A stretch of DNA of 64,000 bases, taken from contig JBGAMF010000007.1 of NCBI GenBank assembly GCA_044223185.1, positions 686 to 64,685 on the forward strand. The letters are read 5' to 3'. The notes under the pieces are model-generated. The model was not told where the DNA came from and did not search any database. It saw nothing but the letters and a program-made list of their open reading frames with translations. A program made the position numbers and the translations under genes. The DNA comes from Casimicrobiaceae bacterium (GTDB lineage: Bacteria > Pseudomonadota > Gammaproteobacteria > Burkholderiales > Casimicrobiaceae). Positions 53,087 through 63,591 of this stretch are shown piece after piece (positions within the stretch are counted from its first letter, which is position 1; each line of letters opens with the position of its first letter).

Positions 53087-53176
53087 GCCTGACGGAATGG
53101 CTGACCGGCGGGCCGCGCCAGTGCGGACCAACGTCGAGCCGCATGCCGGCGCGTCCGCTCGAGTGCACGGGCGGGC
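53087..53176 (-). repeat. Degenerate attC (core GTCAGGC, inverse core eroded)
   Basis: GCCTGAC-ggaat-ggctgaccgg...ccgctcgagt-gcacg-GGCGGGC; arm layout like 63511-63591. Confidence 0.55.
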
Positions 53177-54485: not shown

Positions 54486-54564
54486 GCCAAACGCCCAAAC
54501 TCAGCCGTGGCGCCAGCTTCGCGCAAGCAGATCTGGTGAGGTCGGCTGGAGTGCGTCGTTGGGC
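54486..54564 (-). repeat. attC site
   Basis: GCCAAAC...actcagccg / cggctgGagt (extrahelical G)...GTTGGGC; 79 bp. Confidence 0.8.
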
Positions 54565-55102: not shown

Positions 55103-55159
55103 GCCCAACGTAGAGTTCGGCGGCGGCCGGCGGCCGTCCGTTGCAACGGCCTGTTGGGC
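55103..55159 (-). repeat. attC site (short, 57 bp)
   Basis: GCCCAAC-gtaga-gttcggcgg...ccgttGcaac-ggcct-GTTGGGC. Confidence 0.9.
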
Positions 55160-55720: not shown

Positions 55721-55789
55721 GCCCACCGTTCGAGGAAACGCGGGACCAGCATTGGGACGCCTGGCCCGCCGCTGGGCCTCGTGTTGGCC
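55721..55789 (-). repeat. Possible heavily degenerate attC
   Basis: Minus strand GGCCAAC 14 nt after a stop, cagcggcgggcc arm, GTGGGC end; poor pairing. Confidence 0.3.
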
Positions 55790-55802
55790 GAGGGGTAGGG
55801 AT

Positions 55803-56321: not shown

Positions 56322-56405
56322 GCCTGACGGACAAAGCCAATCGGCCGCGAGCGGACGGCGCGCCAGCGCCGCCGGCGGGCGGTCCGGTTGAGCGAGGGTT
56401 CAGGC
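56322..56405 (-). repeat. attC-like site with GAC/GTC variant R boxes
   Basis: GCCTGAC-ggaca-aagccaatcgg-ccgc...gcggT-ccggttGagc-gagg-GTTCAGGC; both extrahelical bases present. Confidence 0.7.
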
Positions 56406-57889: not shown

Positions 57890-57979
57890 GCCTGACGAAA
57901 AAGGCGAGCGGCGCGCCGCCGCGGCGCCCGCCAAGTAGAAGCTGCGTACCGACGCGTCCGCTCGACCGCAGGATCAGGC
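57890..57979 (-). repeat. attC-like site with GAC/GTC variant R boxes
   Basis: GCCTGAC-gaaaa-aggcgagcgg-cgcg...cgcgT-ccgctcgAcc-gcagg-ATCAGGC; holds the hicB TGA. Confidence 0.75.
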
Positions 57980-59092: not shown

Positions 59093-59170
59093 GCCTAACG
59101 TTCGAGTTCACTCGCAGCCGGAAGCAGGCGAAGCCTGCTGGAGGCTGTCGGGTGCAACGACGGGTTAGCC
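59093..59170 (-). repeat. attC site
   Basis: GCCTAAC-gttcg-agttcactcg-cagcc...ggctgT-cgggtGcaac-gacgg-GTTAGCC; 78 bp. Confidence 0.95.
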
Positions 59171-59728: not shown

Positions 59729-59815
59729 GGCTAACGCTACCAGCTAACCGGCGCGTGCCAGCGGCCGCCGAAGGACGGCCGCGGGACACGCGTGCGGTTG
59801 AGCGCCGGGTTAGGC
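59729..59815 (-). repeat. attC site
   Basis: GGCTAAC...agctaaccgg / gcggttGagc...GTTAGGC; holds the higA TAA; 87 bp. Confidence 0.95.
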
Positions 59816-60359: not shown

Positions 60360-60391
60360 ATATTATGTATATATCTAATATGGCATGTCAA
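60360..60391 (-). promoter_or_regulatory. Cassette-borne higBA sigma70 promoter with operator
   Basis: TTGACA-N18-CATAAT on minus strand; ATATTA-N10-TAATAT inverted repeat over it. Confidence 0.7.
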
Positions 60392-60419: not shown

Positions 60420-60510
60420 GCCTAACGTTCAAGTTAACCGGCGCCCGGCCACCAGCGGTCGGAAACAAGAAACCATGTGCCCGGGCGTCCGGTTGAACGC
60501 AGAGTTAGGC
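60420..60510 (-). repeat. attC site
   Basis: GCCTAAC-gttca-agttaaccgg-cgcccgg...ccgggcgT-ccggttGaac-gcaga-GTTAGGC; 91 bp. Confidence 0.96.
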
Positions 60511-60527
60511 CTGAAATGGGGAGCCAA

Positions 60528-61580
60528 TCAAGCTCCACCACCAAGGATTTTGATATAGCTCTGCTCTTTATCTCGAAGGTCCCATGTTGCCTGGATATGT
60601 CGCGTTAACTCCGGCAAATCGGTTTCAATCGTAGTCCGCCAGAGATGTGCTTTGTACTCAAAGACACGCAACATGTTGTCCACATCAAATACGCGACCCG
60701 TTCCCGTAGCCTTGATGATCGAAACCGGCCTATTCGTCATCATGCGAATGCCTAGCTCGAACAGCACATTAGGATTGTGTTCCGTCAAGTCGCATATGAC
60801 GAGATCAGCCTCCAACAACTCCTTGATGATGGTCGATTGGATCAGGTCGCTGCCTTGTCGGTTTGCCGTTCTTACTTGGAAACCTGCTTCGACTGCCGCC
60901 GGTGTGATAAGGCTTCGGAGCACTTCGGTGAAGAACCCGCTAGCATGTGTTGCTTCTCGTTCTACAAACGGCATGATCACAAAAGCTACAAGATTTGATG
61001 CTGTCTTCGGTTCGCCTACCACAACCGTGGTCTTGGTCTCGGCGGCCCTTTGCGGCGGCGAGCCAGGAGCATCACCGGCCTTGATTCCAAGATACTCGGA
61101 ATTGGCTCGAAAGAGCTTTGAAAATTCTTCGTGCTGCTCGGGCAGGAGTCCAAACTCTCTCTCCAGCGTGTTACCGAGATACTTCATTTCTGGCAGATCA
61201 CTGCCCTTGTAGTGATCGAACACTCGACGAAAGATGTCGACCCCCAGGAATGCTTCCGTTTTCTTTTCTAGCTCAGCTGCCGGGTCCGGAGCGTAAACAA
61301 TCGCTCTGCCCAGATCGGTGAGCTCCACCTTCGGGGTATTTCGAGTGCCGATCGTCAGTCCGAAGTCACGGGAAGCGGCGGTCGTGTAGTAAAACTTGTT
61401 GGTCTTGTGGCTCATGCTCAAGGCTGCGGCTAGATCCTCCACAGCCCATGGATTGCCACCATTCTTCTCCTTGATCGCGACTGGGACTTCTAGCGCTATC
61501 TCAAGAGGCAGGGTCGGAAAGGTGACCTTCGGCTTTTCCGCCTTCGGTGCAGTCTTTTTCGTACCTTTCTTCGCCGCCAC
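60528..61580 (-). CDS. Winged-helix plus nucleoside 2-deoxyribosyltransferase-like (NDT) two-domain protein (cassette)
   Basis: N-terminal FP...LE.AL, FGLT.G, VELT.LG.AI; C-terminal AFVIMPF, ADLVICDLTEHNPNVLFELG. Confidence 0.7.
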   Translation of the reverse strand: MAAKKGTKKTAPKAEKPKVTFPTLPLEIALEVPVAIKEKNGGNPWAVEDLAAALSMSHKTNKFYYTTAASRDFGLTIGTRNTPKVELTDLGRAIVYAPDPAAELEKKTEAFLGVDIFRRVFDHYKGSDLPEMKYLGNTLEREFGLLPEQHEEFSKLFRANSEYLGIKAGDAPGSPPQRAAETKTTVVVGEPKTASNLVAFVIMPFVEREATHASGFFTEVLRSLITPAAVEAGFQVRTANRQGSDLIQSTIIKELLEADLVICDLTEHNPNVLFELGIRMMTNRPVSIIKATGTGRVFDVDNMLRVFEYKAHLWRTTIETDLPELTRHIQATWDLRDKEQSYIKILGGGA

Positions 61581-61604
61581 AATTTTCTCCCTCTGAATAT
61601 TCGA

Positions 61605-61629
61605 ATCTAACGTTGGACTTCACCCGGTC
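61605..61629 (-). repeat. Half attC (core GTTAGAT plus one L arm); other half deleted at the upstream stop codon
   Basis: ATCTAAC-gttgg-acttcacccgg parallels the matching arms at 59093, 60420 and 63005, then runs straight into TGA 61630. Confidence 0.7.
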
Positions 61630-62976
61630 TCACCAGCGCACTTTCCACATTCCGCCTCCGGTGCAGGTGCCGCAATGCTGCAAACTCTTCCAGTCGTTGC
61701 GCCCCGTGACCTTCTCAAGCCCCTTTCTTGCCTTGTCGGCTTTCGCCGATCCTTGCCAAGACGTGTGACCACAGTCTGCGACCTCGACTAAGACATCGTA
61801 TGCGCCCTTGCTATGGGTTTTCTTGTAGAAGCGCACCTCACCCGACCCGGGGTCGGTGGACTCTGAAACGGTGGTGGTTTCGTCCGGGTCTTGGATCTCT
61901 GGCGCCTTCAGCTGGCTAAGTGCGTGTTCAGCCATGTCAGCACGAGCCGCAGTTCGAGCGAGTTCGCTCTGTAGTTGCTCCACTGTGTTCTTGAGATCCT
62001 GGTTCTCATTGATGTACAGACGAGCAATTGCGAGTTCTTCAGAGTTGGGCGCTGCGCGCGCCTCAAGTTCCTCAATCCGACCGCGCGCAACGGCATCCCG
62101 GACTTCTCGAATTCCAACGGGCGGGGTAATTGAGAGCGCAGCCGTCGACATCAGCATTCTGCGCAATGTGGATCTGAGACGATTGAGACCTTTCCCGTCG
62201 CGGTCATTGGACAGGAGCACAGATGCGGTCCAGACGGTACTATTGAAGGTTCCGTCTGGCCTGTTGCGAGGGGGCCAATAGAGGCGGACCGCGCCGCGAT
62301 AACACGAATGCAGTTTCCCGACCTCATCAGACAGGGTCCAGGTTGCATCGTCATCAATCGAGATCACATGGGCAAGACCTGCGAGGTCGAAAGCAAGTTC
62401 TTCTGCGAGCCTGGGCCAGAGTTGTTCACCCTCGATCTGTGACACGACCACGATGGGTAGGCTGCGGTTCCCGCTCCGAATCTCATTGGCAAGTTCCTTA
62501 CCGCCCGTCTCACCAGCGAGGGAGCGTGGCGTAGTTCCACCTATTGTAGTGCCGTTGAGAGTCCAGTCGGCGAACTGATCCAGCAGGGTCCGGACAATCG
62601 ACGGGCACCGCGGGTCGTTCGGCAGCGGAGCAACAATACTGGCAGAGTTCGCAACGCTCAGCGTGCAGTAGATTCTGAGTCGCCCGGCGACCGCCACCGC
62701 TGAGATATGTGTCGTGAAGATCTGACCGGCCCGCGTGAACTCCTCGAGTCGAACTTCGTGAAGGGCGCCGAGATGGACTATCTGCTCCTCGCGGGAGAAA
62801 ACTCCACTCCCATCCTTCGTCAGAGACTCGAACTCACCCGCGTTGAGCGAAGGATCGGCTGCCCCCTTACTTTGGAGCCAGGTAGACATGTTGTGGCGAA
62901 CGGCATCCAATCGACCCTGAAGCTCAGCGTCGGAGAATGTCGGGGATTCGAGAAGGTATGCCGAAAGCACTTGCAT
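61630..62976 (-). CDS. Hypothetical 448-aa protein with coiled coil and C-terminal Cys/His cluster (cassette)
   Basis: Begins 28 nt after the core at 63005; LPIVVVS, LAGLAHV, CYRGAVRLYWP; DCGH...HCGTC. Confidence 0.85.
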   Translation of the reverse strand: MQVLSAYLLESPTFSDAELQGRLDAVRHNMSTWLQSKGAADPSLNAGEFESLTKDGSGVFSREEQIVHLGALHEVRLEEFTRAGQIFTTHISAVAVAGRLRIYCTLSVANSASIVAPLPNDPRCPSIVRTLLDQFADWTLNGTTIGGTTPRSLAGETGGKELANEIRSGNRSLPIVVVSQIEGEQLWPRLAEELAFDLAGLAHVISIDDDATWTLSDEVGKLHSCYRGAVRLYWPPRNRPDGTFNSTVWTASVLLSNDRDGKGLNRLRSTLRRMLMSTAALSITPPVGIREVRDAVARGRIEELEARAAPNSEELAIARLYINENQDLKNTVEQLQSELARTAARADMAEHALSQLKAPEIQDPDETTTVSESTDPGSGEVRFYKKTHSKGAYDVLVEVADCGHTSWQGSAKADKARKGLEKVTGRNDWKSLQHCGTCTGGGMWKVRW

Positions 62977-63004
62977 AGTGGCAGGGAGGCTTTAGGTGCG
63001 TCGG

Positions 63005-63073
63005 GCCTAACGTTTGACATGAGGGGCTTGACCCGGCTTGCCGGGGCAAGTCCCCTCGATGGAAGGGTTAGGC
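63005..63073 (-). repeat. attC site
   Basis: GCCTAAC-gtttg-acatgagggg-cttg...caagT-cccctcGatg-gaagg-GTTAGGC; holds the upstream TAA; 69 bp. Confidence 0.96.
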
Positions 63074-63510: not shown

Positions 63511-63591
63511 GGCTAACGAAAAAGGTGACCGGCGCGCGAAAGGCGGGCGAAGCCACGCCGAGGCGCGTCCGCGTTGACCGCCGGGTTAGGT
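63511..63591 (-). repeat. attC site
   Basis: GGCTAAC-gaaaa-aggtgaccgg-cgcgc...gcgcgT-ccgcgttgacc-gccgg-GTTAGGT; 81 bp. Confidence 0.9.

What the first reader, a model, noticed from the sequence alone, without database searches (positions are those of the whole stretch)
60528..62976. Two cassettes locked together by attC deletion: candidate two-gene defence unit
Seen: between the 448-aa gene and the wHTH-NDT gene only the core-side half of an attC remains (61605-61629), starting immediately after the TGA. Both outer attC sites (63005 and 60420) are intact. Inference: the pair can now excise and move only as one 2.6-kb cassette and is probably co-transcribed. Both genes are AT-rich and unlike metabolic cassettes. 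Established: integron arrays carry anti-phage genes. A sensor (coiled coil plus Zn finger) with a nucleotide-degrading effector (NDT) is a plausible, possibly undescribed system, but this is a hypothesis.
Basis: partly seen in the sequence, partly recalled or inferred. Interest (0 to 1): 0.75.

Follow-up and report, generated by a model that had tools for sequence, protein, structure and literature searches.

The report
Two integron cassettes fused by attC loss
Two unrelated single-gene integron cassettes, each a plausible stand-alone anti-phage gene, have been welded into one 2.6-kb cassette by loss of half of the recombination site between them; this is a known kind of accident, and nothing indicates that the two genes work together.

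Summary
Both genes lie on the minus strand (448 aa, 61630-62976; 350 aa, 60528-61580). Complete attC sites flank the pair (63005-63073 and 60420-60510). Only the L'-R' arm of an attC survives between the genes (61605-61628), starting 1 nt after the TGA. The R''-L'' arm is absent and no hairpin can form. The junction is identical in at least 11 independent metagenome assemblies, so it is not an assembly artefact.

The "sensor plus effector" reading is not supported. No relative of the 350-aa protein lies within 6 kb of 44 genomic relatives of the 448-aa protein. No relative of the 448-aa protein lies on 80 metagenomic loci of the 350-aa family. Neither family has any conserved neighbour. Each occurs elsewhere as a single-gene cassette with its own attC sites.

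The 448-aa protein is a variant of PADLOC HEC-07, a validated single-gene defence, with a conserved Cys/His domain in place of the RelE domain. The 350-aa protein has a winged-helix-like N-terminal domain and an NDT/DNPH1/MilB-like N-glycosidase domain that keeps the catalytic Glu.

Most likely this is an accidental fused cassette of two autonomous candidate defence genes. Fused cassettes are already described in class 1 integrons.

The parts
63005..63073 (-). Complete attC upstream of the fused cassette. Crossover G at 63011; the cassette starts at 63010.
   Evidence: CM R1 63.2 bits, E 8.6e-14; hairpin with R''/R' paired.
61630..62976 (-). 448-aa gene (P0001), a HEC-07-like protein. Domains: N-terminal alpha/beta domain, thioredoxin-like domain, long coiled coil (residues 263-356), linker, and a 70-aa Cys/His domain with invariant C402, H404, H434, C435 and C438.
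   Evidence: PADLOC HEC-07 PDLC04161 E 3.7e-26, aligned to profile positions 137-372 of 553. Full length and conserved to the last residue in 20 relatives. AF2 pLDDT 82.7. Thioredoxin hits in Foldseek, prob 0.97-1.0.
61605..61629 (-). attC remnant of the 448-aa cassette. Only the L' box, spacer and R' (GTTAGAT, 61611-61605) remain. The R''-L'' arm and the loop are deleted.
   Evidence: 3'-arm PWM 18.7 bits, one of 5 positions in 127,954. No CM hit. 5'-arm best score -3.4 bits. No hairpin.
61581..61610 (-). Start of the 350-aa cassette (TTAGAT...) and its 5' UTR, with Shine-Dalgarno GAGGGAG at 61593-61587, 6 nt before the GTG start.
   Evidence: Read from the sequence. Relatives of the 350-aa gene in other arrays also start at G|TTAGA[TC] (L051, L065, L095, L099).
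60528..61580 (-). 350-aa gene (P0002). N-terminal winged-helix-like helical domain (about residues 20-165) plus a C-terminal NDT-superfamily N-glycosidase-like domain (about 185-335). E275 in the motif NPNVLFELG is invariant.
   Evidence: Foldseek: MilB 4ohb E 9e-4, DNPH1/Rcl prob 1.0, TM(target) 0.6-0.69. Profile alignment puts FELG on Rcl's YELG. PF05014 only 13.8 bits. PADLOC 'Effector TIR' 6e-6. E275 invariant in 20 relatives.
60420..60510 (-). Complete attC of the 350-aa cassette. Crossover G at 60426 is the end of the fused cassette.
   Evidence: CM R1 69.7 bits, E 2.5e-15.
60426..63010 (-). The fused two-gene cassette as a whole, 2585 bp.
   Evidence: Derived from the two crossover points. 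Contiguous in all 11 independent contigs that span it.

Best explanation
Two independent single-gene integron cassettes that happened to be neighbours in a chromosomal array became one cassette. A deletion removed the short 3' UTR, the R''-L'' arm and the loop of the first cassette's attC. The deletion probably arose by slippage at the hairpin; this step is inferred. IntI recombines the folded bottom strand of attC, which needs both arms (established integron biochemistry, from my own knowledge). The remnant therefore cannot recombine, and the 448-aa and 350-aa genes can be excised or captured only together, using the sites at 63005-63073 and 60420-60510. With no hairpin, promoter-like site or terminator-like site between them, they are read on the same read-through transcript, and the 350-aa gene has its own Shine-Dalgarno sequence.

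Functionally the two genes are autonomous.

The 448-aa protein is a variant of the single-protein defence HEC-07. It keeps the conserved N-terminal, thioredoxin-like and coiled-coil regions. It carries a highly conserved Cys/His, probably zinc-binding, 70-aa domain in the position where HEC-07 has its RelE RNase. That domain is presumably the output module (inferred).

The 350-aa protein joins a winged-helix-like domain to an NDT/DNPH1/MilB-type N-glycosidase domain with the catalytic Glu intact. It presumably cleaves the base from a nucleotide or nucleotide-like metabolite. This would parallel the NDT effector of retron Ec86, which is reported to deplete adenine derivatives (bioRxiv 10.1101/2023.08.16.553469). 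The substrate, the trigger and a defence role are all inferred.
For: Anatomy: searches show complete outer attC sites, a 3' arm only at 61605-61628, no 5' arm and no hairpin.

Real junction: 11 independent contigs at 99.5-100% identity.

The 448-aa family as an independent cassette: it is flanked by attC sites on both sides in L003 (Acidovorax sp.) and L036 (Planctomycetaceae MAG). In L004 (Burkholderiaceae MAG, 69% identity) its own complete attC follows 17 nt after the stop.

The 350-aa family as an independent cassette: it is flanked on both sides in L120, and attC sites lie directly downstream in L049, L067, L069, L074, L099 and L119.

No co-occurrence: 0 of 44 genome loci and 0 of 80 metagenome loci. 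No conserved neighbour for either family.

The 448-aa protein is full length to its last residue, so the deletion spared the gene.

Recombination at true attC sites is seen in the population, because flanking cassettes differ in L056 and L064 exactly at crossover points. No contig breaks at 61605-61629.

Modular C-terminus: relatives of about 500-530 aa match the profile only over positions 1 to about 365. They match PADLOC HEC-07 end to end.

Precedent: blaGES-1/aacA4 has a truncated attC, is excised only as a unit and is transcribed polycistronically (PMC4670013).

No promoter-like or terminator-like site lies inside the pair.
Against: No integrase gene is on the contig, which ends inside the array, so current mobility is unproven.

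All contigs carrying the pair show the same array context. Movement of the pair as a unit to another position has not been observed.

A truncated attC was once reported to be excised by IntI1 (Ramirez et al., as cited in PMC4670013), so 'cannot recombine' is not absolute.

A defence function for either protein rests on homology and context only. The 448-aa protein lacks the RelE domain of the tested HEC-07. The 350-aa protein falls below Pfam's NDT threshold.

Lack of co-occurrence elsewhere does not exclude a recent, lineage-specific functional interplay.
Confidence: 0.8

Rival explanations
1. The pair is a genuine two-gene defence system. The 448-aa protein senses infection and activates the 350-aa nucleotide-degrading effector, and the attC loss was selected because it keeps the partners together.
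For: The genes are adjacent, in the same orientation and only 49 nt apart, with no site, promoter or terminator between them. The pair is maintained unchanged in many samples. The 448-aa protein has no recognisable catalytic domain. Two-gene defence cassettes exist in integrons (bioRxiv 10.1101/2024.07.02.601719).
Against: The families do not co-occur in 44 genome loci or 80 metagenome loci, and neither has a conserved partner. Each occurs as a single-gene cassette with its own attC sites. HEC-07, the closest known relative of the 448-aa protein, works as a single gene (bioRxiv 10.1101/2024.01.29.577857). The closest relatives of the 350-aa gene (79-88% identity) have other upstream neighbours.
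Confidence: 0.07
2. The attC between the genes is still functional. It is either an unusual site whose 5' arm is hidden in the end of the 448-aa coding sequence, or a half site that IntI can still use, so the genes remain separate cassettes.
For: R' (GTTAGAT) and L' are well preserved. One truncated attC has been reported to be excised (cited in PMC4670013). A weak RYYYAAC-like GCGCAAC lies about 85 nt upstream on the coding strand (read).
Against: No CM hit with filters off. The 5'-arm PWM is at background, -3.4 bits. The fold leaves R' unpaired with z = -1.5. The coding sequence there is constrained by an invariant protein C-terminus. No population contig breaks at this point, while contigs do break at true attC sites.
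Confidence: 0.05
3. The fusion is real, but one or both genes have nothing to do with phage defence. For example, the 350-aa protein could be a nucleotide-salvage or modified-nucleotide-sanitising enzyme with a DNA-binding regulatory domain.
For: The closest solved folds, DNPH1 and MilB, are metabolic enzymes. PADLOC support for the 350-aa protein is weak, 6e-6 to a TIR effector model. The 448-aa subfamily itself has never been tested. Most integron cassettes have unknown functions.
Against: HEC-07 homology is strong, 3.7e-26. Both genes are patchy accessory genes, absent from 36 same-genus and 24 same-order genomes. They sit among toxin-antitoxin cassettes (BrnT/BrnA, HicB-like, HTH pairs). 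NDT-type effectors are known in retron defence (bioRxiv 10.1101/2023.08.16.553469).
Confidence: 0.3
4. The missing attC half is an assembly artefact.
For: Repeated attC sites commonly break or mis-join short-read assemblies, and the genome is a 192-contig draft.
Against: The same junction appears in 11 contigs from different samples, sources and assemblers, including contigs that consist of the pair alone.
Confidence: 0.01

Closest known systems
Fused gene cassettes of class 1 integrons, e.g. blaGES-1/aacA4 (Fonseca and Vicente, PMC4670013)
   Same: Partial loss of the first cassette's attC, both coding regions intact, and an intact attC at the outer end. In the published case the pair is excised only as a unit and transcribed as one mRNA.
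   Different: Here the R''-L'' (left-hand) arm is lost and the L'-R' arm is kept; in blaGES-1 the 2L core and the right-hand domain are lost. The array here is chromosomal and environmental, in a 72% GC draft genome. The cargo is candidate defence genes, not resistance genes. Neither excision nor transcription has been tested.
HEC-07 (PADLOC; Payne et al., bioRxiv 10.1101/2024.01.29.577857)
   Same: A single-gene unit. The N-terminal domain, thioredoxin-like domain and coiled coil are homologous (E 3.7e-26). There is no conserved partner gene.
   Different: The C-terminal RelE-like RNase domain of HEC-07 is replaced by a 70-aa Cys/His domain that matches no Pfam family. This subfamily has not been tested against phages.
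NDT superfamily N-glycosidases (DNPH1/Rcl, MilB) and the NDT effector of retron Ec86
   Same: The fold and the catalytic Glu in the (F/Y)ELG motif. The retron effector shows that this fold can act as a nucleotide-depleting immune effector (bioRxiv 10.1101/2023.08.16.553469).
   Different: Sequence similarity is below Pfam's threshold. There is an extra N-terminal winged-helix-like domain. No reverse transcriptase or ncRNA is nearby, and no PADLOC retron model is hit. The substrate is unknown.
Two-gene phage-resistance integron cassettes (BRiCs; Kieffer et al., bioRxiv 10.1101/2024.07.02.601719)
   Same: Two genes between one pair of attC sites in an integron, with possible defence content.
   Different: In this window the two genes come from two separate cassettes, and a visible attC remnant lies between them. 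Their families never co-occur elsewhere.

Membership tests
Fused integron gene cassette | Complete attC sites at both outer boundaries | tested here: met
   CM R1 63.2 and 69.7 bits.
Fused integron gene cassette | Internal attC partly or wholly lost, with both ORFs intact and in the same orientation | tested here: met
   3' arm 18.7 bits, 5' arm -3.4 bits, no CM hit, no hairpin. Both proteins are full length against their families.
Fused integron gene cassette | Each component exists elsewhere as a separate cassette | tested here: met
   L003, L004 and L036 for the 448-aa family; L120, L049, L067, L069, L074, L099 and L119 for the 350-aa family.
Fused integron gene cassette | Excised by IntI only as one unit | not testable with these tools
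   Needs inverse PCR or long reads. No integrase is on the contig, which ends inside the array.
HEC-07 (PADLOC) | AdoMetDC-like N-terminal domain plus thioredoxin-like domain | tested here: met
   PDLC04161 E 3.7e-26 and PDLC04159 E 9.5e-10. Foldseek thioredoxin hits, prob 0.97-1.0.
HEC-07 (PADLOC) | C-terminal RelE-family RNase domain with a conserved His | tested here: not met
   The alignment to the profile stops at position 372 of 553. True HEC-07-type relatives align to the profile end and also hit NsnC. The C-terminus here is a Cys/His domain with no family match.
HEC-07 (PADLOC) | Stand-alone single gene | tested here: met
   No conserved neighbour in 44 genome loci.
NDT superfamily (PF05014; DNPH1/MilB-like) | Flavodoxin-like NDT fold | tested here: met
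   Foldseek: MilB E 9e-4, many DNPH1 chains prob 1.0, TM(target) 0.6-0.69.
NDT superfamily (PF05014; DNPH1/MilB-like) | Catalytic Glu nucleophile | tested here: met
   E275 is invariant in 20 relatives and aligns with the Glu of Rcl's YELG.
NDT superfamily (PF05014; DNPH1/MilB-like) | Score above Pfam's gathering threshold | tested here: not met
   13.8 bits against 28.8.
Two-gene sensor-effector defence system | The partners co-occur across lineages | tested here: not met
   0 of 44 and 0 of 80 loci. The closest relatives of the 350-aa gene have other neighbours.
Retron type II (NDT effector) | Reverse transcriptase and ncRNA next to the NDT gene | tested here: not met
   The neighbours are the HEC-07-like gene and a toxin-antitoxin-like cassette. 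P0002 hits no PADLOC retron model.

The most novel reading that the evidence does not exclude
The fusion is not neutral. Locking a HEC-07-like protein, whose RelE output is replaced by a Cys/His domain, to a winged-helix/NDT N-glycosidase may have created a co-mobilised, co-expressed defence duo in this lineage. The two could cooperate, or act synergistically against different phages. If so, this would be a snapshot of how integrons assemble multi-gene immune systems from single-gene parts. A more modest version is that each gene founds an untested single-gene defence family. One would be a new output domain for the HEC-07 scaffold. The other would be an NDT enzyme that might deplete normal or phage-modified nucleotides.
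Probability: 0.1. Interest if true: 0.6.

Novelty: new member of a known kind. Interest (0 to 1): 0.3.

Why it matters
As a structure it is a clean natural example, reproduced across many samples, of how attC decay turns two mobile units into one operon-like unit in an environmental chromosomal integron. That mechanism is already documented for resistance cassettes.

The more useful output is the two proteins. One belongs to a large unannotated subfamily of the HEC-07 defence scaffold with a new, very conserved Cys/His C-terminal domain. A profile of this family finds 2107 representative clusters at E <= 0.001, which include the longer RelE-type HEC-07 relatives. The other belongs to a large unannotated winged-helix/NDT family, with more than 2000 relatives. 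Both families travel repeatedly as integron cassettes in several phyla, and both are cheap to test as single genes.

The result also warns against reading adjacency inside cassette arrays as functional linkage.

Tried and rejected
1. I looked for a hidden complete attC overlapping the end of the 448-aa gene. The CM with filters off, the 5'-arm PWM and a DNA fold were all negative.

2. A CM search on the isolated 70-nt stretch, meant to obtain a truncated-model hit, gave only trivial core matches of 3.1 and 2.0 bits and was uninformative. The PWM test replaced it.

3. My first regular-expression and fold scans for attC sites were too strict and missed several sites. The CM superseded them.

4. 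Identifying the 70-aa Cys/His domain failed. Pfam at E <= 10 on four fragments, a PDB profile search and whole-model Foldseek gave nothing. A region-restricted homology search found the domain only in proteins of the same architecture. I considered His-Me finger, zinc-ribbon and RelE-like folds from the secondary-structure pattern, but none could be supported.

5. NCBIfam gave no meaningful hit for either protein.

6. I searched for the integron integrase. No tyrosine recombinase is on contig C53, and a genome-wide PWM scan found no second attC cluster, so the proximal end of the array is not assembled.

8. Insertion of the 350-aa cassette at a secondary site was considered and rejected. An L' box and spacer typical of an attC precede the GTT, which a secondary site would not provide.
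Full report
**What is there.** The last 11 kb of the window is the distal part of an integron cassette array, with its genes on the minus strand. The host genome is 72% GC. The array is 60% GC, the 448-aa gene 58.2% and the 350-aa gene 52.6%. 'AT-rich' therefore holds relative to the host only.

I built a covariance model from 13 attC sites: 8 from this array and 5 from two arrays that carry relatives of the 448-aa gene. RNAalifold recovered the R''/R' and L''/L' helices, and 9 of 16 pairs show compensatory changes. With filters off, the model finds complete sites on the minus strand at these positions:
- 63511-63591
- 63005-63073 (63.2 bits)
- 60420-60510 (69.7 bits)
- 59729-59815
- 59093-59170
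- 57890-57979
- 56322-56405
- 55721-55800
- 55103-55159
- 54486-54564
- 53087-53176

It finds nothing between the two genes.

**The half site.** On the coding strand the 448-aa gene ends ...CGC TGG TGA. Then follows G ACCGGGTGAAG TCCAAC GTTAGAT TCGAATATTCAGAGGGAGAAAATT GTG, where the GTG is the start of the 350-aa gene.
- A weight matrix of the last 24 nt of the 13 attC sites scores 61605-61628 at 18.7 bits.
- Only five of 127,954 positions in the window reach that score. The other four are true attC sites.
- A matrix of the first 24 nt (R''-L'') peaks at -3.4 bits anywhere in the 225 nt upstream. True sites score 17-31 bits.
- Folded as single-stranded DNA, the region leaves GTTAGAT unpaired, with z = -1.5. 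Three true attC sites give z = -3.3 to -5.6.

Only the core-side (L'-R') arm remains, starting 1 nt after the stop codon. The fused unit runs from 63010 to 60426, which is 2585 bp.

**Not an artefact.** The exact 350-aa protein is indexed in 98 blocks of the public assembly collection. In all 10 places shown for it, and in the one contig that carries the exact 448-aa protein, the 448-aa gene (or its cut-off end) lies 49 nt upstream of the 350-aa gene. All are 99.5-100% identical to the window. They come from ENA, JGI and Logan assemblies of different samples.

These contigs also show that recombination at real attC sites goes on in the population:
- L056 carries a different cassette directly after the GTTAGGC of attC 59093-59170.
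- L064 has a different cassette upstream of about position 64214.
- Several contigs end at the outer sites of the pair, for example L060, which spans 63012-60396.
- None breaks at 61605-61629.

**Are the two genes a system?** The 448-aa protein belongs to a well-conserved family of about 450 aa. Twenty diverse members align end to end, including the last residues ...CTGGGMWKVRW. The deletion therefore did not truncate the gene.
- In 44 genome loci with full or nearly full matches, spread over several phyla, no relative of the 350-aa protein lies within 6 kb (tblastn best E 0.58).
- Clustering all flanking ORFs gives no conserved neighbour; only shadow ORFs inside the gene itself cluster.
- Conversely, 80 metagenome loci of the 350-aa family contain no relative of the 448-aa protein (best E 2.3) and no conserved neighbour.
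- The closest relatives of the 350-aa gene, at 79-88% identity, have other upstream genes.

Both families occur elsewhere as ordinary single-gene cassettes.
- The 448-aa family lies between two attC sites in L003 (Acidovorax sp.) and L036 (a Planctomycetaceae MAG). In L004 (a Burkholderiaceae MAG, 69% identity) its own complete attC follows 17 nt after the stop.
- The 350-aa family lies between two sites in L120. attC sites lie directly downstream in L049, L067, L069, L074, L099 and L119.
- Cassettes of the 350-aa family start with G|TTAGA[TC] in L051, L065, L095 and L099, as in the window. The TTAGAT at 61610-61605 therefore belongs to the 350-aa cassette, and the L' box and spacer upstream of it belong to the 448-aa cassette.
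- Neither gene is present in 36 same-genus or 24 same-order species genomes.

**What the proteins are: the 448-aa protein.** It hits the four PADLOC HEC-07 models. The best is E 3.7e-26, over residues 118-355 and profile positions 137-372 of 553.

HEC-07 is a single-gene system that reduced plaquing of phages in E. coli. It is described as an AdoMetDC-like domain, a thioredoxin-like domain and a C-terminal RelE-family RNase (bioRxiv 10.1101/2024.01.29.577857).

The AlphaFold model (pLDDT 82.7) shows five parts:
- an N-terminal alpha/beta domain
- a thioredoxin-like domain (Foldseek prob up to 1.0)
- a helical, coiled-coil region (residues 263-356)
- a disordered linker
- a small beta-beta-beta-alpha-beta-beta domain

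That last domain carries the invariant C402, H404, H434, C435 and C438. It matches no Pfam family. It is the best conserved part of the protein, at 65-87% identity where whole proteins are 45-70% identical.

A profile search of 1.8 billion representatives finds two groups. Beside the ~450-aa type there are many 500-530-aa proteins that match only positions 1 to about 365. These align to HEC-07 models end to end, and their C-termini also match PADLOC NsnC. The scaffold is thus modular, with a swappable C-terminal module. The 448-aa protein is a complete single-protein variant, not a sensor that lacks an effector. What its Cys/His domain does is unknown. I infer that it is the output or nucleic-acid-binding module.

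**What the proteins are: the 350-aa protein.**
- Its model has pLDDT 81.3. It shows a helical, winged-helix-like N-terminal domain at pLDDT above 90; the winged-helix assignment rests only on the order of secondary-structure elements.
- The C-terminal domain's best structural matches are MilB CMP/hmCMP N-glycosidase (E 9e-4) and many DNPH1/Rcl chains (prob 1.0, target TM 0.6-0.69).
- A profile alignment places the invariant NPNVLFELG on Rcl's ...VGYELG, so E275 corresponds to the catalytic nucleophile.
- Pfam's NDT model scores only 13.8 bits against a cut-off of 28.8.
- PADLOC gives a weak TIR-effector hit of 6e-6.
- Two phage protein families of unknown function match the domain; phrog_3634 scores 5e-19.

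NDT-type effectors are known in immunity. The retron Ec86 effector is reported to deplete adenine derivatives (bioRxiv 10.1101/2023.08.16.553469). A defence role by nucleotide cleavage is therefore plausible but untested.

**How it most likely works.**

Shown:
- two complete genes, one dead internal site and two live outer sites
- no promoter-like or terminator-like site inside the unit
- a good Shine-Dalgarno sequence (GAGGGAG) 6 nt before the GTG start of the 350-aa gene

Inferred:
- A deletion at the hairpin removed the 5' arm.
- The pair now behaves as one cassette for IntI and is read from one read-through transcript coming from upstream.
- Losing the hairpin may even improve expression of the second gene. 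That attC structures can dampen downstream expression is my recollection of the literature and was not checked here.

The published fused cassette blaGES-1/aacA4 shows exactly this behaviour. Circles form only for the fused unit, and the mRNA is polycistronic (PMC4670013). The same paper notes one reported exception in which a truncated attC was still excised.

**Verdict.** The mobility and co-transcription inference is reasonable and has precedent. The sensor-effector hypothesis is not supported. This is a fused cassette, which is a known if rare kind of structure. It is made of two autonomous genes that are each good candidates for single-gene phage defence. Two-gene defence cassettes in integrons are already described (bioRxiv 10.1101/2024.07.02.601719). 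Even the more exciting reading would therefore be a new member of a known kind rather than a new kind.

Noticed in passing
window 59093-59170 and about 64214 (locus L056 3934-4052; L064 1-248): Other samples carry different cassettes joined exactly at the GTTAGGC/GTTAGGT crossover of true attC sites. Cassette shuffling is therefore visible in the natural population of this lineage.
   Followed up: partly
proteins P0304-P0385; PADLOC NsnC models: HEC-07-type relatives of about 500-530 aa share positions 1 to about 365 with the 448-aa family. Their C-terminal domain also matches PADLOC NsnC. Further C-terminal variants exist (P0257, 467 aa; P0320, 445 aa). The HEC-07 scaffold seems to carry interchangeable C-terminal modules.
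   Followed up: partly
window 60362-60391 (-): A near-consensus sigma-70-like promoter (TTGACA, 18 nt, CATAAT; 11 of 12) lies in front of the next cassette. That cassette encodes a 94-aa protein and an 86-aa HTH protein, and the arrangement looks like a toxin-antitoxin cassette with its own promoter.
   Followed up: no
window 53087-53176, 56322-56405, 57890-57979: Distal attC sites score lower in the model (25-42 bits) and have GTC/GAC instead of GTT/AAC at the core, for example CGTCAGGC. The distal array may be decaying.
   Followed up: no
L001 2219-2260, L002 2855-2900, L007 3209-3250, L011 7357-7400: Relatives of the 448-aa gene that have no model-detected attC downstream are still followed by short R''-like motifs a few nucleotides after the stop (GTCTAAC, GCCTAAA, GTATAAC). 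These may be relics of former attC sites.
   Followed up: partly
window 60528-61580 (protein P0002): The NDT-like domain matches phage-encoded families of unknown function: phrog_3634 at 5e-19 and phrog_10872 at 9e-10. Phages therefore carry relatives of this domain.
   Followed up: no
genome G000, contig C53 end (window 64000 to about 65198): The contig ends inside the array, with more attC sites at 64188-64268 and 64347-64469. No integron integrase is on the contig, so the proximal end of the integron is not assembled.
   Followed up: partly
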